From NCBI GenBank assembly GCA_963795855.1, contig CAWCIZ010000003.1, positions 800,001 to 864,000 of the forward strand: a DNA stretch of 64,000 bases, given 5' to 3'. The notes under the pieces were generated by a model. It did not search any database and had not been told where the DNA came from. It saw only the letters and a program-made list of their open reading frames with translations. The DNA is from Vulcanimicrobiota bacterium (GTDB taxonomy: Bacteria > Vulcanimicrobiota > Vulcanimicrobiia > Vulcanimicrobiales > Vulcanimicrobiaceae). Below are positions 16,531 through 31,882 of this stretch, piece after piece. The position numbers and the translations under genes were made by a program. Positions within the stretch are counted from its first letter, which is position 1. Every line of letters begins with the position of its first letter.

Positions 16531-16923
16531 GTGATGTTCGACAGCCAAAACACTCAGCGTTTAACCGACCTCGACGCGCATGAAAATGCGATGGCGCTCC
16601 CCATTGCTGAAGTGGTCTCGCAGCTCGTCGAGATTTTAGGCGCCACGACGGTCGCGGTCATCGGCGGCGTCACGGAAACGCGCGCCGTCCAGCAGTGGAC
16701 CACCGGGCGAGAACCCCACCACCCGCACGTACTGCGCTTCGCCCTGCAGATAGCCACGATGATCTCTTCCAAAAACGGCAGCTGCGAGGCTGCTCGCGCT
16801 TGGTTCCAGGGAAGCAATCCTCGTCTCGAGGACGGAATCCCCGCCGTGATGCTGCGCAGCGAACCGCTGGAAAACATTCAAGCGCCGCTCATGAGAGCCG
16901 CGCGCGCTTTCGCCTCCCGCTGA
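16531..16923 (+). CDS. Xre/MbcA/ParS-like antitoxin-type HTH protein (no adjacent toxin)
   Basis: N-terminal HTH and C-terminal ARAWFQGSNPRL motif. Confidence 0.6.
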   Translation: MMFDSQNTQRLTDLDAHENAMALPIAEVVSQLVEILGATTVAVIGGVTETRAVQQWTTGREPHHPHVLRFALQIATMISSKNGSCEAARAWFQGSNPRLEDGIPAVMLRSEPLENIQAPLMRAARAFASR

Positions 16924-17007
16924 CCCGTATCACACCTGCAACGCCATCTCCGGCGCAGCCGCCAATGCCATCTTGAACGCGTCTGCGCTGCTTGAGAGAA
17001 TGGCGGC

Positions 17008-17661
17008 ATGGTATTACGCGCCGGCGCCGTCGTTCACGAACCCACCCTCCGGGGCGATTCCGTGCATGTCCTCGGCGACGTAGATGAATCCAATTCTTCC
17101 GAATTGGAAGAAGTGCTCGCTCGCGTCGTTCCGCTCGGCCGCAACGTCACCATCGATTTGACTCGCTGCCGATACATCGGATCGGCGGCATTGCGGCTTC
17201 TGCTCCGCGCAAGGCGTAACGCGCATGCCGATTTCGGCACGCTGGTGCGTCCCGAGAGCCTGGCCGATCGCGTGTTGCGGGTCGCAAAGCTCGACACGTT
17301 TTTGAGCGTGCAGCAGGTCGAGGTGGAGCAGGCCGACGTTTATCACTCGGACGAACCGATCCGCGTGGTTGCGCTCGAAGGCGAATGGGATCTTTCCCGC
17401 GGCGCCGAGCTGCGCCGCAAATTGGATCGCGCGAGCCGCGATCCGCGCGTCGTGCTGGATCTTTCGGGTATGCAACTGATCGACTCCAATTGCATGGCGA
17501 TGATCGTCCGCATGCGAACGCAGCGCGTGGCAAAGGGATATCCGTCGGCACCGCTGGTCATTCCGCACCGCGGCGTACGAAAACTCTTCACCATTTCCGG
17601 TTTAGCCCAGTTGTGGAGCATCTTCGATACGCTCGATGAGGCATTTGCGGCACTGCAATAA
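17008..17661 (+). CDS. Tandem STAS (anti-sigma factor antagonist) domain protein
   Basis: Two repeats: GDVD...IDLTRCRYIGSAAL and GEWD...LDLSGMQLIDSNC. Confidence 0.8.
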   Translation: MVLRAGAVVHEPTLRGDSVHVLGDVDESNSSELEEVLARVVPLGRNVTIDLTRCRYIGSAALRLLLRARRNAHADFGTLVRPESLADRVLRVAKLDTFLSVQQVEVEQADVYHSDEPIRVVALEGEWDLSRGAELRRKLDRASRDPRVVLDLSGMQLIDSNCMAMIVRMRTQRVAKGYPSAPLVIPHRGVRKLFTISGLAQLWSIFDTLDEAFAALQ

Positions 17662-17690: not shown

Positions 17691-17933
17691 ATGGCCGCTG
17701 CTTATCGTAGCGGCATGTTCGACGTAGCCGGACCCCTGGCAAATGCGCTCGCTCTTTCGCGCAACGGTTTAGCCGACGCCGCAACCGGCACCGCTCGCGC
17801 GCAGACGCCGTACGGTTCGCCTCGCAGCGATGCCGCGATGGCCGGCGCTGCGGAACAAGCGATCTTTCAGGAAGCGCTGCTCGACGCGCTGCACGCCCGC
17901 CTTGCCGAAATCAAGAATGCCGCACATGGATAG
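17691..17933 (+). CDS. Small protein in the FlgB position (highly divergent)
   Basis: 80 aa, directly upstream of and overlapping flgC; sequence similarity weak. Confidence 0.4.
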   Translation: MAAAYRSGMFDVAGPLANALALSRNGLADAATGTARAQTPYGSPRSDAAMAGAAEQAIFQEALLDALHARLAEIKNAAHG

Positions 17934-18261
17934 CCTCGGGTTATTGAAAACCGCGGCTTCCGGCATGGATGCGCAGCGCGCCGTCCTCGATATCGAGGCG
18001 CGCAACGTCGCCGCTGCCCAGGCCGCAGGGCCCAAAGGTTCGCCGGAGCGGCTCGTGCCCGACTTTCGCGTCGTGGAAAACGACGGCGACGCGCCGCAAG
18101 TTCTGGTTTCCGGATCGCACGTGCAGCGCGGATCGAGTGTCGACGTCATTACGGAAATGGTGTCGGTTCTGAACGCCGCGCGGGCCTACGAAGCCAACGC
18201 GTCCGTGTTCGACATCGGCAAACGTTTGGCCGAACGCACCATCGACATGGGCAAACTATGA
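17926..18261 (+). CDS. flgC: Flagellar basal-body rod protein FlgC-like (short)
   Basis: ASGMDAQR...ARNVA and VDVITEMV...RAYEANA. Confidence 0.85.
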   Translation: MDSLGLLKTAASGMDAQRAVLDIEARNVAAAQAAGPKGSPERLVPDFRVVENDGDAPQVLVSGSHVQRGSSVDVITEMVSVLNAARAYEANASVFDIGKRLAERTIDMGKL

Positions 18262-18527
18262 AGGTCGAAGTTCTCGTGCCGGACGTCCCCTTTGAAACCG
18301 AACGTCGCGCGCCTGCGGGCAATGCGGTGTTCGGTAAGGTGCTCGACGATGTGGCCGCGGTGCTGGATAAGGCGGACGCCGCGGAAAACGCGTTCGCGGC
18401 GGGATCGGGCGATCTGCAAAATGCGGTGTACGAACGCGCGCGTGCGGACGTCGCGCTTTCGGTCGCGACTGCGGCTGCGGGGCGTACTGCACAGGCGCTT
18501 GAGTCGATTCTGAACATGCAGGTATAA
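18258..18527 (+). CDS. fliE: FliE-like basal-body protein
   Basis: FGKVLDDV...ADVALSVA...ILNMQV C-terminus; follows flgC. Confidence 0.8.
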   Translation: MKVEVLVPDVPFETERRAPAGNAVFGKVLDDVAAVLDKADAAENAFAAGSGDLQNAVYERARADVALSVATAAAGRTAQALESILNMQV

Positions 18528-18530
18528 AGC

Positions 18531-19995
18531 GTGGACGTTCTCGCCGTTCTCGCGCGTTGGAACTCACTGCCCGCGCGGACTCGCGCTATTGCTTCGTTTG
18601 CGTTCGCCGCGGCTGCCGCAGTTTCGATCCTTGCGGGCATCGTAACGCATCCGCAGCGTTCGGCGCTGTTCGCGAGCGCGTTGCACCCCGAGCAGGCTCT
18701 CCGAAGTTGAAGAACGGCTCGCGAGCTGGAACGTCGCATTCACGCCGGTCGCGGACAACGTGCTCGTCCAAACGGGACGGCGGAACGATCTGCTTCTGCG
18801 CCTTTCGATGGCGGGCGTGCCCCACGCGCACATCGACGCCTCTGCGGACGTTCTGGGAAAACTCGGCGCGCTTACGCCGCAAGCGGTCATCGACGCGCAA
18901 GCGCGCGACGGTCTCGCCGGAGACATCGAATTGGGGCTGCGCGGAATTCAAGGAGTGGAAGACGCGCGCGTGATCGTGGCGCCGGCGAAACCGGCATACT
19001 TCGCAGACGACGGTTCACGCGATGCTAGTGCCAGCGTACGGCTGCAGCTCGCGCCGAACTCGCGGCTCTCGGCGGACGCGGTGAACGGCATTCGCTCCTT
19101 CGTCGCCGCAAGCGTGCCCGGGCTGGACGAGCGCCGCGTCACGATCGTGGACGATCGCGGCGTCGCGCTGGGGGACGGTTCCACCCAGGATGACGCGGGC
19201 GATATGCAGCGTTCTCTTCAAACCGCGCTCGACGCGGCGCTCGGCGCGGGAACGTCAATCGTTCGCGTGCACGTCGAATACGACCGTCGCGCGATTACGA
19301 GCAAAGACGTACGGCGCGCTCCGCTTTCGCCGCTGCCGATTAGCGCGACCATGCAGGACGAACGCTACGACGCTGAGGGCAAACGCTACGACCGGTCGGA
19401 CCAGCAACTCGATCGCGGAAGCGAAACGCGCGAGGTGGCATCGTCCGCCGCGCCGGGACGCATTGCGCGCATTTCCGCAGCGGTCTTCGTGGACGCCGCG
19501 CACGGCATCGATCTGGAACAAGTGCGCGAACTCGCAACTGCGGCGCTTGGGCTGGATCCGCACCGCGGCGATACGATCGAGGTTGCCGCGATCGCCTTTG
19601 CACGGGTACCTGCGGTGCGCAAGGACGGCTGGTGGCTGGCATACGGCGCAATCGTACCGCTCCTTCCAACGCTTGCCATCGCCATTGCGGCACTGGTTGC
19701 ACTGAGTTGGGCTCACGGGCCGCTCACATCGCTGATACGAACGATCGCAGAGCGCGCAAGCATTACGCGCGCGGCGCAAGCCGCACAAGGAATTCCGGCG
19801 GCGCGCGTTCGGGGAGCGCTTGCGAACGAACCGCCGCACGCCGCCGCGGCAATCATCAGTGCGCTGCCGGCTGCTACAGCCGCCGCGGTTCTCGATATGT
19901 ATCCGGAACACGAGCGGGCGGCGATTATCCGACGCATGCAGCGGCCTGCATCGCCGCTGCTGTCCGACGCGGAGAGCTTCATTGCCAATGCCTGA
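18531..19995 (+). CDS. fliF: FliF-like MS-ring protein with C-terminal FliG-middle-like domain (frameshift near 18700)
   Basis: TM1; ring motif GVEDARVIV...ASASVRL...VAASVPGL...VTIVDDRG; RGDTIEV; TM2; then NEPPHAAAAIISAL...AAVLDMYPEHERAAIIRRM. Confidence 0.8.
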
Positions 19996-20476
19996 AAACT
20001 TTCGCACCTTAGCCGAATTGCTGGGGCCCGCTCCATCGGAACGCGTTGCCGATTCACCGTGCGATGAGGATGACGCAATCGCCGATTGCGGCACCGAAGA
20101 TACGGCCGTCTGGGGTGAGGAAATGGCCGAGCTGGCGCGAGAGGTGCGGCTGTTTCGCGCGCACGTCGCGGAAGCAGTCGACGCGGCGTTGGAAACGCTG
20201 CTCGCCGATATCGCCGCCGAGGTTCTGGCACGCGAATTGCTGTTGGCACCGGTAGACGTTCAGCAAATCGTCGAGCGCGCGGTTCGGCGTTTCGACGGTG
20301 AACGAACGCTTCGCATACGCGTGCATCCCGATGAGGTGCAACGGGTTGAATCCGAGGTACCGGTCATTGCGGATTCGACTCTGCGCCGTGGTGACGCTGC
20401 GATCGAGTTATGCAACGGCAGCGTCGACGTCTCGCTCGGCGTGCGGCTCGAAGCGGTGCTGCGCGCAAACTCGTGA
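19988..20476 (+). CDS. fliH: FliH/SctL-like ATPase stator protein (short)
   Basis: IRVHPDE...DSTLRRGDAAIE...GSVD C-terminal pattern. Confidence 0.8.
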   Translation: MPENFRTLAELLGPAPSERVADSPCDEDDAIADCGTEDTAVWGEEMAELAREVRLFRAHVAEAVDAALETLLADIAAEVLARELLLAPVDVQQIVERAVRRFDGERTLRIRVHPDEVQRVESEVPVIADSTLRRGDAAIELCNGSVDVSLGVRLEAVLRANS

Positions 20477-21705
20477 TTGCGCGCGGAACGGTGCTCGGCG
20501 CTGCCGGTGGTCTCGTGTCGGCTCGGCTTCCGGGCGCGGTCGTGGGCGCAGGCGTACGACTTCGCACTTCAAGCGGCAGCGTTGCCGGCATCGTAACCGC
20601 GCTGCGAAGCGAACGAACGTTGATTGCCGCATACGATGCACTCGAAGGCCTTCGCGTCGGCGACGACGTGTATGCGCATCCCACGGCACTGATGATGCCG
20701 CTCGGTATGCCGATCCTCGGCCGCGCGATCGACGCCGCAGGCACGCCTTTGGACGGCGGTCCGCCGATACGCGGACGCGCGACGAGCGCTGCGCTCCATG
20801 CGCCCGAACCATCGCAACGCAAAGCAGTTCGCACGGCCTTCTGGACCGGGATCCGCACGGTCGATGCGCTGCTTACCGTCGGGCGCGGAGCGCGCATCGG
20901 CATCTTCGGACCGCCGGGTTGCGGTAAATCGACGCTGCTGCACTCGCTGATTCACGCTTCCGGAGCCGACGCCGTCGTCGTCGGTTTGGTCGGCGAGCGC
21001 GGACGCGAAGCGGAGGAGTGGGTGCGCGTGTGTCCGCCGCACGCATGCGTCGTCTGCGCCACCAGCGATCGCAGTCCTGCGCAGCGCATCCATGCGGCGC
21101 GCGTCGCGATGGCGCAAGCCCACGCGCTGCGCTCGCGGGGTTTACACGTCCTGCTCGTTCTCGATAGCCTTGCGCGGTATGCTGCCGCGCTGCGCGAAGT
21201 CGCATTGGCTTGCGGCGAAAGCGTCGGCCGAGCGGGCTATCCGGCAAGCGTCTTTGCCGAACTCGCGCGTTTCCTTGAAGTGGCGGGCGCGTGCAAGCGC
21301 GGTTCGATTACGCTGGTGGGAACCGTGCTCTCCGACGGTGACGAGCGCGATCCGGTCAGCGACGCCGCGCGCTCGCTGCTCGACGGGCACATCGCGCTTT
21401 CACCGAAGCTCGCGCATGCCGGACGCTTTCCCGCAATCGATCTGCTCGCGAGCGCCAGCCGGACGATGGGCGAGATTGCGGACCCGGTGCATCTCGAGCA
21501 CGCGAGCGCGGTTCGCCGCGCCGTGTCGGTGCTGGCGCAGAGCGAGGACGCGCGCAGCCTGGGCATCGCCCCGACCGACGCGTTCGCCGTCCGCGCCATC
21601 GCCGCGGAACCCTACATCGACCGGCTGCTCCGCCAAGGCAAGCTGCCGTCCTCGCCCGCACAGACGCTATCGGCGCTCGCCGCCGTTGCCGATATCTTGA
21701 GGTAA
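20473..21705 (+). CDS. fliI: FliI/SctN type III export ATPase
   Basis: Walker A GPPGCGKST, GERGRE, LDSLARYA, GYPASV, LDGHIAL, FPAID. Confidence 0.92.
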   Translation: MIARGTVLGAAGGLVSARLPGAVVGAGVRLRTSSGSVAGIVTALRSERTLIAAYDALEGLRVGDDVYAHPTALMMPLGMPILGRAIDAAGTPLDGGPPIRGRATSAALHAPEPSQRKAVRTAFWTGIRTVDALLTVGRGARIGIFGPPGCGKSTLLHSLIHASGADAVVVGLVGERGREAEEWVRVCPPHACVVCATSDRSPAQRIHAARVAMAQAHALRSRGLHVLLVLDSLARYAAALREVALACGESVGRAGYPASVFAELARFLEVAGACKRGSITLVGTVLSDGDERDPVSDAARSLLDGHIALSPKLAHAGRFPAIDLLASASRTMGEIADPVHLEHASAVRRAVSVLAQSEDARSLGIAPTDAFAVRAIAAEPYIDRLLRQGKLPSSPAQTLSALAAVADILR

Positions 21706-21708
21706 GCC

Positions 21709-22260
21709 ATGGACATCAGCACGGATATCGCCGCCGTTCGCCAGCGCATCGCCGAAATTACCGGACAAAGCCTCCTGCCCGCTCCGCCGGTTCAACCGTC
21801 CGGCTCTTTTGCTTCGATGGTGTCGGCTGCGATGAACCCGGAGTCCGTCGCAGGACCGGCTCCCGTTCCACCGCAGCGCATCGCACAGCTCGTGGGCGCA
21901 AATGCGAACGCCTGGGGCGTCGACCCCGCGCTTGTAAAGGCCATCATCGCAAACGAGTCGGGATTCGACGCAAACGCCACGTCGAAGACCGGCGCGCAGG
22001 GCCTGATGCAGCTCGAGCCGGGGACCGCCGCCGGCCTGGGGGTTGCAAACGCTTACGATCCGGCGGAAAATATTTCGGGCGGGACGCGTTACATGAGAGG
22101 CCTTCTGGATCGTTTCCATGGTGATCTGCGCCTGGCAATTGCCGCCTACAATGCGGGGCCGGCGGCAGTGGAGAAGTATGGCGGAGTTCCACCCTATGCC
22201 GAAACGCAGGCCTACGTCGACAACGTACTCGACAGTTATCAGCGGTACAAGACGCAGTAG
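21709..22260 (+). CDS. Lytic transglycosylase (SLT domain)
   Basis: [26 protein letters not shown]. Confidence 0.93.
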
Positions 22261-23813
22261 CATCATACTGCTGCTGGCTGCAGCTCTCGCACTTCCCGCA
22301 ATTACCGCGCGCGCCCAGGCGCAGTCACTTTCCACGGTGCTCGACGCGCGTAAAACCGCGCTCGCCGCGATGCACGTGCACCAGCCCAGGAGCCTCGAGG
22401 TCATCGGCATCGTTACCGGCGGCGGCTTGACGGGCGAATTTCATACTTGGCAAACCGCGGACGGCAAAGCGCGCTTCGAAGAAGATTACGGGGTGCGCAA
22501 AGAGACGACGCTGCGCATCGGACGCAAAGAATATGTCGTGAACGAAAGCGACGACGTGCGCCAGTCTGCATGGGCTACTGCTGCAGCGGCAGCTGACCGA
22601 CGATTTCGTGGACGACGACCGCTTCGTCACTCAGCCGCAATACGACTCGTACATCGGACAAAAGCGCCTTCCGGATGGGCGTTCGGTCTTCGAACTCGTC
22701 GTCGCGCCGCCCGGCGGCCAGCCGGAAACGGTCGATTTGGACGTGAAGACGCTGATGATCGATCGCGTCAGTTACGACGAAGAAGACGGAATCTCGACGC
22801 AGGATTATTACGGCTATAGGCACTTCGACGGCATCGTAATGGCCGAGCGCGAAACGGATTCGAACGGCGATCATGCCTACGACGTCACGCGGATTGCAAA
22901 CAAGGTCTACGTCGATCGGCCGATTGCGTCTTCGTTGTTCGAAGTTCCCCAAGGCGCGGTGGTGCAGAACGACAAGCCGATTACGGTCCCGCTCATCGAG
23001 CGCCAAGGCCATTATTACACGATCGTTCGCATCGGAACGCACGATTACACGTTCTTGGTCGATACGGGAGCGCAGTCTATCGTGCTCGATTCCCACGTCG
23101 CTTCGCAATTGGGTCTGGAGACCGAAGGGCATCTCGAGGTGTCCGGCGTGCAGCGAGTCGGCGGTATGGGCATAACGCCGCTCAAAAGTCTGCAAATCGG
23201 CGGCGCCACGCTGCCGGTGCACGTGGCGACCGTCATCGATCTGCACGGCGTCACCGGCACGTTCGACGCCGACGGCGTGCTCGGATATCCGTTTTTCGCG
23301 GCGGCGGAAGTGACGATCGATCCCGTGGCAAAGACGATGACGTTCGGGAAACCCGGCGCACTGCAGGTAAAAGGTGAGCCGATTGTGGTCGACGCCGACC
23401 GGCAACTCATCGAAGTGGACGGGAAAGTGAACGGCGCGCAAGGGCGTTTTGTGATCGACACCGGCAACAGCACCGAACTCTTGCTGTTCCAGCCGTTCCT
23501 GCACTCGCATCCGTACCTGGTGCAATTCGGCGACCGGCATTTTGCGAACGACTACGGCGTGGGCGGCGAGGTTCGCGCCGTATCCGCGATCATCGACGAA
23601 CTCGACGTCGGGAATTATCGTCTCTACAACAGAAACGTCAGCCTCATGCTGAGCGATCAAGGCGCGTTTGCCGACCGGTTCGACGCCGGCAACATCGGTA
23701 TGGGCGTGCTGCAAAACTTCATCGTGACGTTCGATCTCGCGAACGCGCAAATGTACCTCGAACGCGACGCTGCTTTCGACGACGGACGCTATCGCGCTCG
23801 CCTCGATCACTAA
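22230..23813 (+). CDS. Exported double retropepsin-like aspartyl protease (start approximate; frameshift near 22565)
   Basis: Signal-like [27 protein letters not shown]...DGVLG and FVIDTGN...GNIG. Confidence 0.8.
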
Positions 23814-23873
23814 GACACCGCTCCGCAATAATTCCGAAGCAGCCTCATCACGCGGCGCTCCTAGCGTAAGTGC

Positions 23874-24426
23874 ATGACGATTACGGAGCAGTTGCAGTTC
23901 AGCGTTCTCACGGCGCCCGTCGCTACACTCGACAGACGCGTGCTCTCGCAGGCTTGGTATTCCGCGCTCTATCCCAGCGGCGCTTCACGGGCCGAAAAGT
24001 CGCCGCAACCTCCGAAAGCGCAAGAGCGTCCCGCACCTGCCCCGCGCGCTCGTGAACGAAAGTCACGCGCGCGTTTGGACGAGCGGTTCCTGCGCTCCGC
24101 ATTCGGCCGAGCCGGCAAAAGCATCGAACCGCTCGGGGTTTGCTCCGCTCGATCGGCGCGCGCCGCGATCGCCGCTCGCACGCAAGATCGAACGCACGCT
24201 GCTGCATCCGCGCGCGTCGTCGAGAAAAACATCGTTTACTATCCATGCATCGCACGGCCGGATTCATGTGTTGCTGCAGAACCGGCCGCGCGGTCTGAAA
24301 CTCATCGCCATTTGCCCGCCGAATGCGCGTTCGTACGTCGCGGCGGCGCTCGCTCAGGCGCGTTACGCGCTCGCGCTGCGAGGCATGGCGCTCGATGCGG
24401 ACGTGCGCGCGGAGATGCCATGCTGA
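23874..24426 (+). CDS. Hypothetical protein with FliK C-terminal-like domain (frameshifted)
   Basis: Low-complexity linker, then GRIHVLL...LKLIAIC...ALAQARYALALRGM, resembling the FliK/T3S4 fold. Confidence 0.45.
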
Positions 24427-25139
24427 TTTCGAACGCGGCGTCGCGGGCGCTGGATGAGATCGCCGTGCGGGAACGCGACGTGCTGCAGGCGTTCGCGCCG
24501 GGCGCAATACCGGAACGCGCAGACGTCTCCGCGCCGCCGTCGTCGCAACCGGTGCTCGATCCGTTGTCCGCCGCACCACCGGCAGATGCTTATTTCATCA
24601 CGACGGACGATCGCGGGCGCACGCTTTTCACGCGCGACGGTCAGTTCAGCATAGAGAACGGAACGCTCGTCGATCGCCAAGGCCATCCGGTGCTCGGTTA
24701 CGCGCACGATGGAGCGCCTCTGCAACCGCTGCAAGTCGATCCGGTCGACGCTTCGCTCGGCTTTTCGACTAACGCGGCGCTGCAGCCCGACGGAGCCCTC
24801 ACGTACGAGCGAAGCACGATCGATCCCCGAAACGGCCGAAGCGAACTGGTGCGAGCGATCGCGGGGCGGCTCGCGCTGGCACGGTTCGTGCCGGGAACCA
24901 AACTCGCGACGGTCGACGCGCAACATGCAGCCGCGCCAACCGGAATCGCCCCGCACATCGGACGCGCGGCCGACGGCAACTTCGGCGCAATTACGCCCTT
25001 CGCTGCGCAGCGCAGCGGCATTGACATCGACGCGGGTTTGGAGCGTTTGCAGGAAGCGTATCTTGCGCTCGATGCGATTCGCGCTGCCGGCAAAGCGCAA
25101 GGCGGAGTTCAGAAAACCGCGATGGATTTGCTGAAGTGA
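24420..25139 (+). CDS. FlgF/FlgG-like rod protein
   Basis: AYFI...FTRDGQF...GTLVDRQGHPVLG; C-terminal SGIDI... Confidence 0.75.
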   Translation: MLISNAASRALDEIAVRERDVLQAFAPGAIPERADVSAPPSSQPVLDPLSAAPPADAYFITTDDRGRTLFTRDGQFSIENGTLVDRQGHPVLGYAHDGAPLQPLQVDPVDASLGFSTNAALQPDGALTYERSTIDPRNGRSELVRAIAGRLALARFVPGTKLATVDAQHAAAPTGIAPHIGRAADGNFGAITPFAAQRSGIDIDAGLERLQEAYLALDAIRAAGKAQGGVQKTAMDLLK

Positions 25140-25894
25140 CGGTTCTCGGATTCGAACGCCAAAGCGAAACGATCGCGGGGCGGCGGATTCGGCGCGCGCG
25201 CTTCGAGCGACGGTCTACGCTTCCGGTGTCCGCGGCATGCCTGGTCGCAAACGGCGTGCGTGAAACGCTTGGCGCGCTGCTCGCGACGCCCGTTTCGTTA
25301 CGGCTGCTCGAGCCGGCAATCCCCGATCCGGCGGCGTGGCGCGCGATTTGCGACGGCGCGCAACTCTACACCGCGCGCGGATCCAATTGCGACGCGGCGT
25401 TCGTGCTGCGCCCGCGCGACGCGGTCGCGCTCGCCGGCACCGCTTTTGGCGAAGAGCCCAACGATTCGCGGCAGTTGTCCGCGGTCGAACAAGAGGTGCT
25501 CGTCCGCATGCTGCAAGGGCTCGCGACCTGCTTGGCTCCGGTTTGCGGCCGCGATCTTCAGCCGCTCGAACGCATTCTTGACATAAACGGATTCACGACC
25601 TATTTCGAGCTGCTGCTCGAACGGCCGGCGTCTGCGCGGATCGGCGTTGCGCTCTCGCGGGATCCGGTTTCGCGAGGCGCCGGAAACCTGCGCATCGAGG
25701 ACCTGCTGCAGGTCGAAATCGAGGTTTCCGTGCAATTCGCGTCGGGCGCCCTTCCGGCCGCCGCATTTCTGGACTTACGCCCCGGGACCGACGTGCCGAT
25801 GAAAACAAGGGTAGGGGAACCGGGCCTGCTCAAACTTGGCGGCGCCGTGCTTGCCCGCGGTGAATGCGGAGTCTCGGCGACCGAAGCGCACTGA
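25136..25894 (+). CDS. FliM-like switch protein with C-terminal SpoA domain
   Basis: LSAVEQEVL and C-terminal IEVSVQF...LDLRPG...LARGECG; upstream of fliN. Confidence 0.6.
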   Translation: MTVLGFERQSETIAGRRIRRARFERRSTLPVSAACLVANGVRETLGALLATPVSLRLLEPAIPDPAAWRAICDGAQLYTARGSNCDAAFVLRPRDAVALAGTAFGEEPNDSRQLSAVEQEVLVRMLQGLATCLAPVCGRDLQPLERILDINGFTTYFELLLERPASARIGVALSRDPVSRGAGNLRIEDLLQVEIEVSVQFASGALPAAAFLDLRPGTDVPMKTRVGEPGLLKLGGAVLARGECGVSATEAH

Positions 25895-25930
25895 TCGTGA
25901 CTGCGGTCCGGTAAAGGATACGATACGAGG

Positions 25931-26209
25931 ATGATGGCCGAACAAAAGAAACCGATGGTTGCGGATCAGCAAAACTTGGATTTGCTGATGAATGTGTCGC
26001 TCGAGGTGACGGCGGAGCTGGGCAAATGCAAATTGTCGGTGTCGGACATACTCAAACTCGGTACCGGCTCGATCGTTGAACTCGAGCGTCTTGCCGGCGG
26101 CCCCGTCGATCTGCTCGTGAACAGCAAACTCGTCGCGCGCGGCGAAGTGGTCGCCATCGACGAGAATTTCGGTGTCCGCGTCACGGAGCTGATCCAGAAG
26201 CCGACGTAG
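25931..26209 (+). CDS. fliN: Flagellar switch protein FliN
   Basis: [10 protein letters not shown]...GSIVELER...[16 protein letters not shown]. Confidence 0.93.
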
Positions 26210-26251
26210 CGCCCTCACGTTCCGGCAACATCCGCGCGCTACCGTGGCGTA

Positions 26252-26908
26252 ATGGATGGACTGCTTGCCATTGCAAACCACGCTCGCGCCACGCTGCCGC
26301 TCGACACGCTCGCCGCGCTCACCATCTTATCGGTCGCACCGTTTTTGCTCGTCATGTGTACGTCGTTCGTGCGCATCGTCGTCGTGCTCTCGCTCGTGCG
26401 TTCCGCAATCGGCGCCGCGGCGCTGCCGCCCAATACCGTTTTAACCGGTCTCGCGCTCGTTCTCACACTCGTCATCATGTCGCCCACGCTCACGCGCATC
26501 TCGAATGAAGCGGTGCAGCCGTACTCCCAAGGCCGCATCACGCAATCGCAGTTCATCGACCGTGCCGCCGGGCCGCTGCGCGCGTTCATGCTGCGTCAAA
26601 CTCGCGCGGCGGATATCGACCTTTTCGAGCGCGTCGCGCACGGCACGCCGGGGCCGTACGGCAAAACGCCGATGCTCGTTTTGGTTCCTGCGTTCGTCGT
26701 GGGAGAACTGCGCGACGGATTCGCGATCGGATTCGCGCTCTATCTGCCTTTCGTCGCGATCGATCTGGCCGTTGCGTCGATCTTGATGGGCCTCGGGATG
26801 TTCATGCTCAGCCCGCCCGTCATATCGTTGCCGGCCAAACTGCTGCTGTTCGTGATGGTCGACGGTTGGGCGCTGGTCTGCGGAGGCGTCGCCGCGAGCT
26901 TTAGATAA
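26252..26908 (+). CDS. fliP: Export gate protein FliP/SctR (no N-terminal signal extension)
   Basis: TSFVRIVVVLS, PPNTVL, PAFVVGEL, LGMFMLSPPVISLPAKLLLFV. Confidence 0.93.
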   Translation: MDGLLAIANHARATLPLDTLAALTILSVAPFLLVMCTSFVRIVVVLSLVRSAIGAAALPPNTVLTGLALVLTLVIMSPTLTRISNEAVQPYSQGRITQSQFIDRAAGPLRAFMLRQTRAADIDLFERVAHGTPGPYGKTPMLVLVPAFVVGELRDGFAIGFALYLPFVAIDLAVASILMGLGMFMLSPPVISLPAKLLLFVMVDGWALVCGGVAASFR

Positions 26909-26921
26909 GAGGTGCGCTGAC

Positions 26922-27815
26922 ATGCGCATAAGTCAGGCGCTCGCGACGCAGCGGCCGTTTTTTTCCTTCGAGTTCTTTCCGCCCAGGACCGACGAGGCGT
27001 GCGCGCATCTGCTGGAAACCGCGCGAACGCTGCGCGAATTGCGTCCGGCATTCGTTTCCATCACGTACGGTGCGGGCGGTTCCACCCGGGCGCGGACCGT
27101 CGAACTTTCCAAGCAGATACAAAGCGAGATCGGGCTCAACGTCATGGCGCACGTAACGTGCGTTGCCAGTTCCCGCTCGGACCTGCGATCGGTCTTGAAC
27201 GACCTCGAGGCGGCCGGCATCGAAAACGTTCTCGCGTTGCGTGGCGACCCGCCGCGCGAAGCGCCGGCTTCCAACACGGCGCCGGCCGCATTCGGCCACG
27301 CCGACGATCTCGTCGCGATGGTGGCGCGAAACTACCATTTCTGCATCGGCGGCGCCTGTTATCCGGAGAAGCATATCGAGGCGGTGAGTCTGGCAGACGA
27401 TCTGCAGTACCTCGTGCGTAAAGTGGATGCGGGAGCGGAATTCCTGATCACGCAGCTGTTCTTCGATAATGACAAGTATTTCGAGTTCGTCGATCGAGCG
27501 CGCCGAATGGGCATCTCTGTCCCGATTCTGCCCGGCATCATGCCGATCACGAACTACGAACAAATTCAGCGGTTCACGGCGATGTGCGGGGCGACGATTC
27601 CGCCAAAATTGCTCGCCGAATTGGAGATTCGTCGGGAAGAGCCCAAGGCGGTGGAAGAACTCGGCGTGGCTTTTGCTACACTCCAGTGCACCGATCTGCT
27701 GCGGCGCGGCGCTCCCGGCGTGCACTTTTACACCTTGAACAAATCGCCCGCAACGCGCGCAATCGTGAGCGCGCTCCTCGCAGCGACCGCGTGGAGGTCG
27801 TTCATCAACAGGTAA
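26922..27815 (+). CDS. metF: 5,10-methylenetetrahydrofolate reductase
   Basis: SFEFFPP, TYGAGG, LRGDPP, ITQLFFD, HFYTLN. Confidence 0.96.
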   Translation: MRISQALATQRPFFSFEFFPPRTDEACAHLLETARTLRELRPAFVSITYGAGGSTRARTVELSKQIQSEIGLNVMAHVTCVASSRSDLRSVLNDLEAAGIENVLALRGDPPREAPASNTAPAAFGHADDLVAMVARNYHFCIGGACYPEKHIEAVSLADDLQYLVRKVDAGAEFLITQLFFDNDKYFEFVDRARRMGISVPILPGIMPITNYEQIQRFTAMCGATIPPKLLAELEIRREEPKAVEELGVAFATLQCTDLLRRGAPGVHFYTLNKSPATRAIVSALLAATAWRSFINR

Positions 27816-27849
27816 CGTCGCGGCAACGCCGCTCCGGTAGAGTGCGGCC

Positions 27850-28116
27850 ATGGCGGCATTCGACGGGCTGTTGCGCGAAGCGCTGGTAATTGCGGCGCTG
27901 CTCTGCTTACCCGTGCTGTGCGTGGCGACGCTGGTTGGAACCGTCGTGGCCGTATTTCAGGCGGCTACGCAAGTGCAGGAGCAAACGCTCTCGCTGCTGC
28001 CAAAGCTCATCGCGGTCGGCGTTACCGTCGCCGTATTCGGCGGTTTTGCGATGCACGCGTGCGCGGCACTGTTCACGGACGTTCTCGCGCAAATCCCGGC
28101 GCTCGTCGGCGCGTGA
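27850..28116 (+). CDS. fliQ: Export gate protein FliQ/SctS
   Basis: FQAATQVQEQTLSLLPKL. Confidence 0.93.
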   Translation: MAAFDGLLREALVIAALLCLPVLCVATLVGTVVAVFQAATQVQEQTLSLLPKLIAVGVTVAVFGGFAMHACAALFTDVLAQIPALVGA

Positions 28117-28829
28117 ACGCAACCGCACTTCTGGTCTTCGCGCGTTGTGCGGGCTTTATTTTTCGCGCGCCGGGGTTTTCGCATCCCTCCGTTCCGCCGC
28201 CGGTGCGCGCGGCATTCGCGCTCGTGCTTGCACTTGCGGTCTTCCCCGCCGTACACGCCATCCGCTCGCCGGACGGCGCCGCGTTCGTTGCTGCCGTTGC
28301 AGCGGAGATTGGCATCGGCGCTGCAATCGGTTTTGCGGCGTCGGTGTTGTACGACGGCGCCTACGCAGGTGGGCGCGCGCTCGACGATTACGTCGGTATC
28401 CGCGGCAGCGTCCCGAACGCGCAACTCTACGCGGGCGCCGGTTTTGGGCGCGTCTGGTCGCTCGTCTTTACCGCGGGTTTTTTTCTGCTCGGCGGGTACC
28501 GCGTGCTGATCATCGCGTTTTGCCGAAGCTTCGAAAGCGTGCCGCCGGGCACTGCCATTTCGGCGCACGATTGGTATGCCTATGCGCTCGCGCTCCCGGC
28601 GAGCATCATCGAAGCGGCACTGCTCGTCGCCGGACCGGCGATCGCGATGGTGTTCGTGGCGCAGTTTACGCTCGGAGCGCTCACGCGCGTCATTCCCCGC
28701 TTCGCGAGCTTCACGCTGTCTTTTCCAATCGTTTTCGGCATGGCGCTGATTGCGACGATTCTGGCAGTCCCGCTGCTGTTCGCGCAAAGCGCGCTTCCGT
28801 GGCTCCGCGTTCCTTTTCTTGCGCGATAG
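28113..28829 (+). CDS. fliR: Export gate protein FliR/SctT
   Basis: FAR...PGFS...VPPPVR; multiple TM helices; LTRVIP...FP. Confidence 0.85.
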   Translation: MNATALLVFARCAGFIFRAPGFSHPSVPPPVRAAFALVLALAVFPAVHAIRSPDGAAFVAAVAAEIGIGAAIGFAASVLYDGAYAGGRALDDYVGIRGSVPNAQLYAGAGFGRVWSLVFTAGFFLLGGYRVLIIAFCRSFESVPPGTAISAHDWYAYALALPASIIEAALLVAGPAIAMVFVAQFTLGALTRVIPRFASFTLSFPIVFGMALIATILAVPLLFAQSALPWLRVPFLAR

Positions 28830-29826
28830 ATGGCCGGCGAAAAGCAATTCGAAGCGACGCACTCGCATCTCGAACGCGCCAAACGCGAGGGCGACGTCGC
28901 GCGCTCGCAGGAACTGGGCAACGTCGCCGCTTTCGCGGCCGCGTTGGGCTCGGTCGGCGTACTGATTGCGCCGCTTGCGTCGGCGGCGCGAGGCGCGCTG
29001 ATCGCAGCGAGTGCCGGGCGAGTCGACGCGGCGTCGTGCGCAACTGCGGCCGCGCTCATGCTCGTGCCGATTGCAGCAGCCGCGGCAGCCGCGCTCGGCG
29101 CGAACGTCGTGCAAAGCGGCGGTCTGCGCTTGGCTGCCGTTTCGTTCAAAACCGAACGCCTCTCGCCGGGCGAGAACCTCAAGCGCATGTTTTCTCGCGA
29201 AGTCTGCGGTTACGGCCGCGCGAGCGACGATCGCGTTCGTCTGTGCGGGAGCGGCGATCGTTCCGGCGTTTGCGGCAATTTACGCGTCCGCGCTGCACGC
29301 GGCCGGTTTGGGCGGAGCCGCAACGGCGGCGTGGAGCGGAGCGCTGCGCGCCGCAGCCGCCGCATGCGCGATAGGCGGCGTTTTTGCGTGCGCGGATTAT
29401 GGCGTGCAATTCGCGCGTTGGCGTAAGCGGCTGCGCATGTCGTTCGAAGAACTGCGGCGCGACAGCAAGGAGAACGACGGCGATCCGCTCGCGCGCAGCC
29501 GGCGGCGCGCGCTGCACCGCCAAATCGCGCGCGGTTCCCTGCAGCGCGTGAAAGATGCCGCGTTCGTGGTGACCAACCCGACGCACATCGCGATCGCTTT
29601 GGAGTACCGGCCGCCGCAAGTCCCGGTGCCGCGCGTGCTGGTGCGGGCCACAGACGACGCGGCTGCGCGCGTTCGCGATCTTGCATCGGCGTATGGCATT
29701 CCGCTCGTTGAAAACGTGGCTTTGGCGCGGCAGTTGTACGCGTCGGCGAAAGCGGGCGACTTCATTCCGCACGAAACCTACGTTGCAGTCGCGGAGATCG
29801 TCGCGGCGCTGAGCAAGACGCGGTAA
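28830..29826 (+). CDS. flhB: FlhB/SctU export switch (frameshift near 29200)
   Basis: EKQFEAT...KREGDVARSQEL, LRMSFEELR...GDP, NPTH autocleavage site. Confidence 0.9.
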
Positions 29827-29863
29827 CGTTGCGGCAATATCGCGGTGGGATGCTGAGGGCAAG

Positions 29864-31882
29864 ATGAATCGCGCTTCGACCTATGCTTTTGCGGCGCTGT
29901 TGCTGTGCATCGTGGCGATTCTCATCGTGCCGCTCCCGCCGTTTCTGCTCGACGTGCTGCTGGGCGTGAATGTCTTCACGTCGGCGCTGGTGTTGCTGCT
30001 GAGCGTGACGATCGAGGAGCCGCTCCAATTTTCCGCATTCGCTCCAGCCCTGCTCATCGCGACGCTTTTCCGATTGTCGCTAGACGTGTCGGCGACACGG
30101 CTGATTCTTACGCAAGGCCATATCCCGGGTGGGGCGGGCGCGATTATCCCGGCGTTCGGCGAGTTCGTCGTGCGCGGAAATCTGGTCGTCGGGCTCATCG
30201 TCTTTGCGATTCTCGTCACGATTCAGTTCATCGTCATTGCGAGCGGATCCCAGCGCGTCGCGGAGGTCGCGGCGCGCTTCACGCTCGACGCAATGCCCGG
30301 AAAGCAGATGGCGATCGATGCGGACGTCCACGCAGGCGTGCTCGATGCGGACGGTGCGCGCCGCAAGCGCGAACGCGTTCAGAAAGAAGCGGATTTCTAC
30401 GGCGCGATGGACGGCGCCGGAAAGTTCGTCAAGGGCGACGCAATCGCGGCGCTCATCATCGTGGTGCTCAACCTCACGGGCGGTGTCGCCGTCGGCGTAT
30501 TCTACCACGGCATGTCCGCCGTCGACGCGCTGCAAACGTTCGCGCTGCTCTCCATCGGAAACGCGCTCGTGACGACGCTTCCCGCGTTCCTGATCTCCAC
30601 GGCAATGGGTATGATGGTCACTCGCGTCGCCGCGGACGGTTCGCTGGGATCGGATCTGGCGTCACAACTGTTTGCGCGTCCGGAGATACTGCGTGCGGCG
30701 GGCGCGCTGCTGCTCGCGCTTGCCGCCGTTCCGGCTTTGCCGCGCCCGGTTTTCATCGTGCTGGGATTGAGCGCGTTTGCGGGTGCACATGCAGCGCAAA
30801 AACGCAAGTCGTTTACGGCGGCGCTCGCGCAGCACGAACGAGACGCTGCTAAGCGTCAAGCGATCCGCCGTCCGGAGATGGCGCTCGGGCTCGTCGGCGT
30901 CGACGCGGTCTGCATCGAAATCGGCTCTAATCTCGCGCACTTGCTTGCATCGCCGCTGGCGGACGCGCTGCTCGACCGCATCGGCGAAGTCCGCCGCGCA
31001 CTTGCAGCGGAGATCGGCATCGTGCTTCCGGGCGTGCGTCTGCGCGACGATTTGACGCGCGATCCGAACACGTATGCGATTCGCGTGCGCGACGAACTCG
31101 CCGGCGAGGGCACATTGCAACTCGATCGTATGATCGCCGTTGCGGAAGACCCAATCCTGGAGCAGATCGACGGCGAAGCGGCCTTCGAGCCCGTCTACGG
31201 ATTGCCCGCGAAATGGATCGATCCCGCGCAGCGCGAGCGCGCGTTGGAACGCGGCGCGCTCGTTTTCGACGCGATCTCGATCGTCGGATCGCACTTGGCA
31301 GAAGCCGCGCGCTCGCACGCCGGCGCGTTGCTTGGGCGTCAGGAACTTCAAACGCTGCTCGAACATTTGCGCGCGACCGTGCCGACTGTCGTGAAAGAGA
31401 TCGGAACGGAAGCGCTGCCGCTTTCCGCCGTGCAGAAGGCGTTTGCGCTCTTGCTCCGCGAGCGGATCTGGCCGCGGGATCCCGTCGCGGTCCTCGAGGC
31501 AATGATCGAAGCGGCGCCGGCGAGCCGCGATCCGCGGGATCTCGCCGAGGCGGCTCGGCGCGCGGTCGTCCCCACGCTGCTGCGGCGGCGCGGGGTCGAC
31601 GAACTCGAACCCTTGCTGCTCGATCCCCAGTTCGAGCGGAGCCTCGGCGATTCGCTGGACCCGCAGCTGGCCTCGCGCCTGCGAGACCATGCGCAAGTCT
31701 ACCTCGCGCAGATGCCGCCGAGCCGCGCTGCGCTGGTTTGCACGACGGCGGTGCGGCCGCTCATCGCCGACTTTCTGCTGCGTTCGGGGGTCAGGCTGGC
31801 GGTATACAGTTATGGCGAAATCCCCGCAGAAACTCGCCTGACCCCCGCGAGTATCCTTAAGGAAGAATCGTTGGCGGCTTAG
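29864..31882 (+). CDS. flhA: FlhA/SctV export gate protein
   Basis: RVAEVAARFTLDAMPGKQMAIDAD and FYGAMDGAGKFVKGDA. Confidence 0.96.
   Translation: MNRASTYAFAALLLCIVAILIVPLPPFLLDVLLGVNVFTSALVLLLSVTIEEPLQFSAFAPALLIATLFRLSLDVSATRLILTQGHIPGGAGAIIPAFGEFVVRGNLVVGLIVFAILVTIQFIVIASGSQRVAEVAARFTLDAMPGKQMAIDADVHAGVLDADGARRKRERVQKEADFYGAMDGAGKFVKGDAIAALIIVVLNLTGGVAVGVFYHGMSAVDALQTFALLSIGNALVTTLPAFLISTAMGMMVTRVAADGSLGSDLASQLFARPEILRAAGALLLALAAVPALPRPVFIVLGLSAFAGAHAAQKRKSFTAALAQHERDAAKRQAIRRPEMALGLVGVDAVCIEIGSNLAHLLASPLADALLDRIGEVRRALAAEIGIVLPGVRLRDDLTRDPNTYAIRVRDELAGEGTLQLDRMIAVAEDPILEQIDGEAAFEPVYGLPAKWIDPAQRERALERGALVFDAISIVGSHLAEAARSHAGALLGRQELQTLLEHLRATVPTVVKEIGTEALPLSAVQKAFALLLRERIWPRDPVAVLEAMIEAAPASRDPRDLAEAARRAVVPTLLRRRGVDELEPLLLDPQFERSLGDSLDPQLASRLRDHAQVYLAQMPPSRAALVCTTAVRPLIADFLLRSGVRLAVYSYGEIPAETRLTPASILKEESLAA

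What the first reader, a model, noticed from the sequence alone, without database searches (positions are those of the whole stretch)
17691..31882. Miniaturised flagellum-derived type III secretion machine without hook, filament or stator genes
Seen: flgB-position gene, flgC, fliE, fliF, fliH, fliI, a FliK-like gene, one FlgF/G-like rod gene, fliM-like, fliN, fliP, fliQ, fliR, flhB and flhA. The export gate and ATPase keep their conserved motifs, while the structural and rotor parts are short and divergent (FlgC 111 aa, FliH 162 aa). I see no flgE, flgD, flgK/L, fliC/D, motA/B, flgH/I, fliJ/O, sigma28 or chemotaxis genes, and no secretin or injectisome needle genes. The cluster is bounded by unrelated genes on both sides. 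Known: injectisomes evolved from flagella, and flagellar export cores have been repurposed (Buchnera basal bodies, nanotube CORE complex). Inference: this may be an independent, non-motile exaptation of the basal body as a secretion or conduit device.
Basis: partly seen in the sequence, partly recalled or inferred. Interest (0 to 1): 0.85.

Follow-up and report, generated by a model that had tools for sequence, protein, structure and literature searches.

The report
Non-rotating second flagellar export machine
Most genomes sampled across a little-studied bacterial phylum keep a stripped-down flagellar base that has lost its motor, bearings and filament yet is conserved, so it probably works as an undescribed protein-export tube rather than a swimming organ.

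Summary
The cluster is real. It is a second flagellar-type export machine, separate from a complete motile flagellum elsewhere in the same genome. Corrections: FliF carries a fused FliG middle domain; the 'rod' gene is probably a D2-less FlgE; flgF, flgG, a FlgJ cap and a dedicated sigma-28 lie in a satellite operon about 105 kb away.

It is widespread in Eremiobacterota/Vulcanimicrobiota. FlhA occurs in 114 of 128 high-quality class genomes without flagellin and in 60 of 61 phylum-wide genomes, against flagellin in 20. It is under purifying selection but was deleted in several lineages. FliG stator contacts and the FliM CheY site are gone.

Best reading (0.7): a non-rotating, ruler-gated, rod-length export conduit; substrates unknown. 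Export-gate trees place it beside injectisomes, but the ATPase tree and the FlhA AU test do not confirm this. Nine literature searches found no description. The scan earlier noted only a broken flhB/flhA look-alike in another genome.

The parts
17691..17933 (+). FlgB-like proximal rod protein, shrunk to about 70-80 aa
   Evidence: position before flgC in relatives; hhalign to longer FlgB set E 5e-4, probability 31%; no Pfam hit
17926..18261 (+). FlgC, 111 aa
   Evidence: Pfam Flg_bbr_C 5.6e-8; TIGR01395 7e-14
18258..18527 (+). FliE
   Evidence: Pfam FliE 3.8e-7
18531..19995 (+). FliF MS-ring protein fused to a FliG middle domain, no FliG_C; frameshift near 18700 in this assembly
   Evidence: Pfam YscJ_FliF, YscJ_FliF_C, FliG_M; about 490-aa single ORF in relatives
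19988..20476 (+). FliH, C-terminal part only, 162 aa
   Evidence: Pfam FliH 8e-12
20473..21705 (+). FliI export ATPase
   Evidence: TIGR02546 and TIGR03496 about 1e-104, both below cut-off; catalytic motifs intact
21709..22260 (+). lytic transglycosylase (SLT), probable peptidoglycan opener for the rod
   Evidence: Pfam SLT 3.5e-28; same place in both classes; only a remnant or nothing left where the cluster is deleted
22257..23813 (+). exported double aspartyl-protease gene; passenger; frameshifted here
   Evidence: Pfam Asp_protease_2; kept in 3 of 7 genomes that deleted the cluster
23874..24426 (+). FliK-like ruler and switch protein, about 180 aa; frameshifted here
   Evidence: model of same-genus copy matches 2RRL and 5CUK; profile comparison alone weak, E 0.12
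24420..25139 (+). D0+D1 axial protein at the flgE position (D2-less FlgE), 239 aa
   Evidence: model pLDDT 90, best PDB match a hook chain nearly tied with rod chains; tree outside FlgF/FlgG
25136..25894 (+). FliM without the CheY-binding N-terminus
   Evidence: Pfam FliMN_C; hhalign 95%, E 6e-8; motif absent
25931..26209 (+). FliN
   Evidence: Pfam 1.7e-24
26252..26908 (+). FliP
   Evidence: TIGR01103 over cut-off
26922..27815 (+). metF; passenger
   Evidence: Pfam MTHFR; kept in 7 of 7 genomes that deleted the cluster
27850..28116 (+). FliQ
   Evidence: Pfam Bac_export_3
28113..28829 (+). FliR
   Evidence: Pfam Bac_export_1
28830..29826 (+). FlhB with NPTH cleavage motif; frameshifted in this assembly
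   Evidence: Pfam Bac_export_2 on both pieces; one frame in 11 of 11 relatives compared
29864..31882 (+). FlhA of the non-motile clade
   Evidence: Pfam FHIPEP 1e-200; 38% identical to the genome's motile FlhA; trees

Best explanation
An ancient paralogue of the flagellar basal body, kept for protein export instead of rotation. FliPQR-FlhB-FlhA sit in an MS ring whose C-ring is cut down to a sorting platform (FliF-FliG_M fusion, FliM without CheY site, FliN), fed by FliH-FliI. The gate exports FliE, FlgB, FlgC, FlgF and FlgG, which build a rod under a FlgJ-type cap while the SLT opens the peptidoglycan. A D2-less FlgE adds at most a short end piece, since no FlgD cap is found. A short FliK ruler then triggers the FlhB switch to late substrates, which cannot be flagellin and are probably transcribed by the dedicated sigma-28. 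With no stator, P/L ring, secretin or filament, the product is a fixed rod-length tube ending in the periplasm or at the outer membrane. Shown: gene content, distribution, selection, loss of motor features. Inferred from known flagellar assembly (own knowledge): order of assembly, switch, tube. Not known: expression, substrates, where the tube ends.
For: Separate complete motile flagellum in G000. FlhA in 114 of 128 high-quality flagellin-negative class genomes (hand cross-tab). In 61 phylum genomes: FlhA family 60, flagellin 20, MotB plug 23 (3 weak), FlgD 19, FlgI 21. Satellite in 5 of 5 flagellin-negative class genomes and 5 of 5 from the other class. dN/dS 0.04-0.38 over 15 machine genes against G187. 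Both basic stator-contact positions of FliG replaced in 6 of 6 distinct other-class copies, kept in 9 of 9 motile copies. CheY-binding motif in 6 of 6 motile FliM, 0 of 19 reduced-system FliM. Gate, ATPase and NPTH motifs intact. The satellite flgG is broken or missing in 7 of 8 genomes that lack the main cluster.
Against: No substrate, chaperone or translocon was identified. The system is dispensable: cleanly deleted in 7 genomes from four genera. The sigma factor stays in 6 and the 98-aa gene in 9 of 10 genomes without the cluster, so their link to the machine is looser than gene order suggests. In this class FliJ and FliO are missing from the cluster and branches are long, which could mean relaxed function. 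No outer-membrane exit is evident; closed genome G125 has the system and no secretin match.
Confidence: 0.7

Rival explanations
1. An assembly checkpoint or envelope sensor: completion of the rod lets the gate export an inhibitor and so switches on the dedicated sigma-28. The output is gene regulation, not delivered cargo.
For: Sigma factor is the conserved last or next-to-last gene of the satellite in both classes, with shared changes in its promoter-reading regions (invariant N70-G71, S-x-Q-R). FliK ruler and FlhB switch are kept.
Against: FlgM is found in 18 of 61 genomes, nearly all with a motile flagellum. The sigma survives deletion of the machine in 6 of 10 genomes.
Confidence: 0.13
2. 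The export gate is kept as a CORE platform for membrane nanotubes or a similar contact structure; the rest is trailing baggage.
For: CORE (FliO/P/Q/R, FlhB, FlhA) supports nanotubes in Bacillus (PMC6456723, passages). Gate genes are among the most conserved here.
Against: That paper reports nanotubes without flgB-fliF or fliI, yet these genes are under purifying selection here and are deleted together with the gate. FliO is absent from this class's cluster. Nanotubes are disputed (PMC7532143, search listing only).
Confidence: 0.08
3. A cryptic motility organelle using an unrecognised filament and stator.
For: Full rod set, a hook-like protein and, in the other class, full-length FliG, FliJ and FliO.
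Against: No flagellin, MotB, FlgD or FlgI match in most carriers. Stator-contact charges and CheY site lost. FliG_C absent in this class. The cultured member of the family shows no flagella and glides with pili (PMC9758169, passages).
Confidence: 0.05
4. A decaying relic of a lost flagellum with no present function.
For: Frameshifts in this assembly; repeated losses; an earlier scan note of broken flhB/flhA in a relative.
Against: Mostly intact ORFs, fixed order and dN/dS far below 1. Other-class FlhA stays at 72% identity or more over the 120 best hits, with shorter branches than the motile copies.
Confidence: 0.04

Closest known systems
Motile bacterial flagellum (fla/che-type operon)
   Same: Homologous gate, ATPase, MS/C ring, rod, ruler, sigma-28; gene order flgB-flgC-fliE-fliF-(G)-H-I-fliK-flgE-fliM-N-P-Q-R-flhB-flhA.
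   Different: No stator, P ring, FlgD or flagellin match; torque and CheY sites lost; forms its own clade apart from the phylum's motile flagella.
Myxococcales secretin-less T3SS (Abby and Rocha 2012, PMC3459982; passages)
   Same: Non-motile, no secretin, no needle; proposed to translocate proteins, possibly not outside the cell.
   Different: Myxo systems lack FlgBCDEK, FliEG, FlgH and MotAB and belong to the SctV clade. This system keeps rod, FliE, FliG parts, FliM and sigma-28, and its FlhA is outside the SctV clade.
Injectisome (NF-T3SS)
   Same: Non-rotating type III gate with ruler and switch; export-gate trees place it on the same side of the deepest split.
   Different: No secretin, SctD, needle or translocon recognised; flagellum-specific flgB, flgC, fliE present; FlhA scores above SctV models.
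Buchnera hook-basal bodies (recalled, not checked in a call)
   Same: Flagellar base without filament or stator, thought to export proteins.
   Different: As recalled, a reduction of the only flagellum in an endosymbiont that keeps rings and hook. Here it is a paralogue in free-living cells, often beside a working flagellum, with no P ring or FlgD.
Lysobacter enzymogenes flagellar T3SS (PMC7688988, abstract)
   Same: Flagellin-less flagellar export system reported to promote secretion of non-flagellar proteins.
   Different: It still exports FlgD and is reported for one strain; it is not a distinct miniaturised phylum-wide paralogue.
Nanotube CORE complex (PMC6456723, passages)
   Same: FliP/Q/R, FlhB, FlhA used outside motility.
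   Different: CORE function does not need rod, FliF or FliI, which are conserved here.

Membership tests
Flagellum, genomic definition of Abby and Rocha 2012 | Eight core T3SS genes plus flgB, flgC, fliE, at least 10 genes, no secretin in the cluster | tested here: met
   Definition read; genes found (flgB weak). An automatic tool would probably call it a flagellum.
Motile flagellum | Flagellin filament | tested here: not met
   No flagellin over cut-off in 114 high-quality FlhA-positive class genomes or in 41 of 61 phylum genomes.
Motile flagellum | Stator (MotA/MotB) and FliG torque helix | tested here: not met
   MotB plug 23 of 61, strong hits only with flagellin; FliG_C absent here; basic contacts replaced in the other class. 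MotA was not searched.
Motile flagellum | Hook cap FlgD and P ring FlgI | tested here: not met
   FlgD 19 of 61, FlgI 21 of 61, tracking the motile set. FlgH, FlgK and FliD were not searched genome-wide.
Motile flagellum | CheY-controlled switch (FliM N-terminal motif) | tested here: not met
   0 of 19 reduced-system FliM against 6 of 6 motile; some start codons are predicted.
Injectisome (NF-T3SS) | Secretin SctC in the locus and no flgB/flgC/fliE | tested here: not met
   No secretin in the cluster; G125 has none genome-wide; rod genes present.
Injectisome (NF-T3SS) | Core genes fall inside the Sct clade | tested here: not met
   SctV and SctRSTU clades have 100% support without these sequences.
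Sister group of injectisomes | Core genes branch with Sct to the exclusion of all motile flagella | tested here: inconclusive
   For: FlhA C20 trees SH 98-99; FliPQR+FlhB 99.9/99 and AU p 0.009 and 0.042. Against: FlhA AU p 0.26 and 0.06; ATPase tree places it among flagellar FliI; FastTree on FliPQR+FlhB disagrees.
Injectisome (NF-T3SS) | Needle, tip, translocon; delivery into another cell | not testable with these tools
   None recognised in the loci; these evolve too fast to exclude; needs secretome and imaging.
Type III export gate (functional) | Intact FlhA, FlhB NPTH, FliPQR, ATPase motifs | tested here: met
Type III export gate (functional) | Expression and actual export | not testable with these tools
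   No RNA holder listed.

The most novel reading that the evidence does not exclude
This is a surviving early stage of the flagellum-to-injectisome transition: the sister lineage of all injectisomes, which had already lost stator contacts, bushing, hook cap and filament but still builds the flagellar rod and uses FliG, FliM, FliK and sigma-28. It would come before the Myxococcales stage and be held in a whole phylum with a cultured member.
Probability: 0.25. Interest if true: 0.95.

Novelty: new variant of a known kind. Interest (0 to 1): 0.82.

Why it matters
It adds a third, phylum-wide kind of type III machine between flagellum and injectisome, defined by a clean set of losses (stator contacts, P ring, hook cap, filament, CheY input) and its own sigma factor. 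Automatic annotation would call these genomes flagellated, so motility predictions for Eremiobacterota based on export genes would be wrong for most members. Its further shrinkage in one class (FliF-FliG_M fusion, 70-aa FlgB, 180-aa ruler) is a natural minimal export machine. Natural deletion genomes and a cultured, non-flagellated family member make the function testable. If the sister position holds, it makes the long-open question of how a flagellum became an injectisome directly testable.

Tried and rejected
Shared export gate for a scattered flagellum: rejected; the motile set has its own gate, rod and FliE. Pseudogene in this genome: rejected; secF is broken the same way and relatives are mostly in frame. 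Stops seen in same-genus fliF alignments were the fliE stop. metF and the protease as components: rejected by natural deletions. The 98-aa gene as a strict component: not supported, kept in 9 of 10 genomes without the cluster; ESM Atlas gave nothing above 0.8. Sigma-28 regulon by consensus promoter pattern in 5 genomes: matches at about control level. Expression: no RNA holder listed. Complex prediction for the sigma factor with the 98-aa protein: no result obtained. FliK by profile comparison alone: E 0.12, settled by structure instead. Three unnamed FlhA representatives that also branch near SctV (P0037, P0062, P0131): taxon not found; the one close locus shows fliF-flhA alone (L214). Range outside the phylum: among the 150 best representatives, three placed in the tree (P0001-P0003) and one fragment by score (P0004) are of this type. 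The careful C20 FlhA tree did not finish, and the unconstrained FlhA run timed out before supports. Ji et al. 2021 was not held.
Full report
Observation. The region 17691-31882 holds, on the + strand, flgB-like, flgC, fliE, fliF, fliH, fliI, slt, a protease gene, fliK-like, an axial gene, fliM, fliN, fliP, metF, fliQ, fliR, flhB and flhA. Gate and ATPase motifs are intact. Structural parts are short and mostly score below curated cut-offs. fliF, flhB, fliK and the protease gene are frameshifted, as is the neighbouring secF. Among 11 relatives compared, flhB is in one frame in all, and each other gene is broken in at most one. I read these as assembly errors; reads were not checked. Source labels of close homologues name Vulcanimicrobiaceae, Ca. 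Tumulicola, Cybelea and Eremiobacteraeota.

A separate motile flagellum. G000 (86% complete) has three flagellin-family matches. It has a second full export gate with FliF, a 359-aa FliG, FliI, FlgD, FlgE, Mot and Che genes on contig C2, and flgB-flgL, FliE, FlgH/I and FliD on C1 (some labels rest on my own gene calls and recognition). The two FlhA are 38% identical. The window cluster is a second system.

Anatomy. FliF ends in a FliG middle domain, and no FliG C-terminal torque domain follows; the same three domains are listed for most of the 120 best homologues. The 239-aa axial protein folds as D0+D1 (pLDDT 90). Its best PDB match is a hook chain, nearly tied with rod chains. It stands after fliK, where flgE stands, and in a tree it groups with its other-class orthologues (88/94) outside FlgF and FlgG. 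The 180-aa gene before it has the FliK/PscP switch fold. A satellite about 105 kb upstream (G000:C3:709876-713131) encodes FlgF, FlgG, a 50-aa FlgJ-type cap (hhalign E 1e-4), an FliA/WhiG-type sigma (E 4e-34, below cut-off) and a 98-aa unknown.

Distribution in the class. A FlhA match was found in 357 of 385 genomes, and in 193 of 208 high-quality ones. Flagellin passes its cut-off in 85 of 214, which leaves 80 of the 208. By hand cross-tabulation, 114 of the 128 flagellin-negative high-quality genomes have FlhA. These tallies include genomes flagged unpublished (16 named, G228, G260); no alignment or tree uses them. Gene order is conserved in 20 regions from 18 genomes, between rplM-rpsI and secD; in the most distant family it is split in two. 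Five of five flagellin-negative genomes have exactly three rod C-terminal matches and the satellite.

Distribution in the phylum. In 61 sampled genomes the FlhA family is in 60, flagellin in 20, MotB plug in 23 (3 weak), FlgD in 19, FlgI in 21 and FlgM in 18. Of 20 FlhA loci fetched from outside the class (source labels include Xenobia), 12 show all or part of the same operon in less shrunken form. That form has full FliG, FliJ, slt, a 300-aa FliK, no flgD, a 270-aa axial gene, FliM/N/O and the gate, with no mot genes. One more locus has the markers, five are motile flagella and two are lone flhA copies. The satellite flgF-flgG-flgJ-fliA, without flgA/H/I, is in 5 of 5 such genomes.

It cannot be a motor. 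In the class that keeps FliG_C, the two basic stator-contact positions are replaced in 6 of 6 distinct copies and kept as R or K in 9 of 9 motile copies (the E. coli numbering R281 and R297 is recalled). The CheY-binding motif is in 6 of 6 motile FliM and 0 of 19 of this system. The cultured family member has an outer membrane, no flagella and no flagellin gene (PMC9758169, passages). Its Table S8 lists fliN and no other flagellar gene (supplement searched). I did not test that genome for the cluster.

It is selected but dispensable. Against same-genus G187, dN/dS runs from 0.04 (fliN) to 0.38 (fliH), with secD at 0.17; dS is near 1. Of 12 high-quality genomes without FlhA, 10 also lack the FliF fusion, while 8 of 8 controls have it. 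Eight were inspected at secD. Seven show the flanks joined on one contig with only remnants, keeping metF in 7 and the protease in 3; in one the contig ends. Satellite flgG is broken or missing in 7 of 8 inspected, though some breaks may be read errors. The sigma stays in 6 and the 98-aa gene in 9 of the 10.

Origin. The reduced FlhA of both classes are sisters (FastTree 0.997; C20 SH 100), apart from the phylum's motile FlhA clade. The system therefore probably dates to the phylum ancestor. In FlhA trees, ordinary flagella form one side of a branch (SH 99 without the long-branched class; 98 with it), leaving this system with SctV and two or three unnamed sequences. FliPQR+FlhB gives the same split (99.9/99, bootstrap stopped at 150 iterations before convergence) and rejects grouping with the phylum's flagella (AU p 0.009) or Bacillota (0.042). 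Against this: the FlhA AU test rejects neither (p 0.26, 0.06). The F1-rooted ATPase tree puts it among flagellar FliI with weak support. FastTree on FliPQR+FlhB disagrees and pulls the long-branched copies alone to Sct. The reduced FlgF groups with the phylum's motile FlgF (87/94). I give the sister reading 0.25.

How it most likely works. By analogy with known flagellar assembly (own knowledge), the gate exports FliE and rod subunits under a FlgJ cap, the SLT opens the wall, a D2-less FlgE ends the tube, and a short FliK flips FlhB to late substrates. No stator, P ring, hook cap, filament or secretin is tied to it; closed genome G125 has no secretin match at all. The likely product is a fixed, rod-length export conduit to the periplasm or outer membrane, with late cargo under the dedicated sigma (0.7). 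Rivals: assembly checkpoint (0.13), nanotube platform (0.08), cryptic motor (0.05), relic (0.04). Substrates, expression and end point are unknown.

Comparison and novelty. It meets the genomic definition of a flagellum and fails those of a motile flagellum and of an injectisome (PMC3459982, passages). It differs from the Myxococcales system by keeping the rod and from CORE by conserving parts that CORE does not need. Nine searches found no description. Paoli et al. 2022 (PMC9259500; passages and supplement files 1 and 6 searched) list both gene sets of one genome under ordinary flagellar names; their file 2 could not be read. Ji et al. 2021 was not held and may bear on this. PMC10284905 and PMC7203096 (passages) do not treat it. 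The scan's earlier notes hold one look-alike, a broken flhB/flhA pair read as ordinary inactivation; two more look-ups were blank.

Verdict. Real, conserved, non-motile and apparently undescribed: a new variant of the type III family, interest 0.82.

Noticed in passing
L059:7150-8040 (G000:C3 about 711150-712040): About 830 bases are inserted at the 3' end of the satellite flgG, with a near-duplicate of the gene's last 50 or so bases on the far side, like an integration site.
   Followed up: no
L294-L305 (other-class genomes): Many proteins with only the FlhA cytoplasmic domain, up to 16 family matches per genome. They include a conserved 435-495 aa type, tandem-domain and TPR-fused forms. Possible soluble substrate adaptors; not seen in the window's class.
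   Followed up: partly
L214:19-3434: fliF directly followed by flhA among housekeeping genes, in an unnamed organism whose FlhA type (P0062) also branches near SctV. Possibly another reduced system.
   Followed up: partly
L076:14855-16672 and L077:10600-12459: A MetF-domain gene sits beside flhA in the other class too, echoing metF inside the window cluster, though of a different length.
   Followed up: no
L077, L076, L087: Duplicated fliN (two or three copies) and fliQ (two copies) in the other-class operon; lone extra flhA copies at L078 and L089.
   Followed up: no
window 40000-62000: Low-GC (51-58%) island with a DNA methyltransferase-like gene and few ORFs fitting the genome's codon model.
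   Followed up: no
window 16531-17661: An Xre/MbcA-like gene and a double STAS-domain gene lie just before flgB; among the regions they were seen only in same-genus G191.
   Followed up: partly
G000:C6:134000-141700: A lone flagellin-family gene next to genes that look like a chaperone-usher or spore-coat-U-type pilus cluster (label by recall).
   Followed up: no
G304:C3:76702-77382 and others: A second FliA/WhiG-like sigma persists in flagellin-negative genomes, including some that deleted the reduced system.
   Followed up: no
G386:C52 (L088): A genome with a motile-type operon including FlgD and FlgI but no flagellin or MotB match; assembly gap or a further reduction.
   Followed up: no
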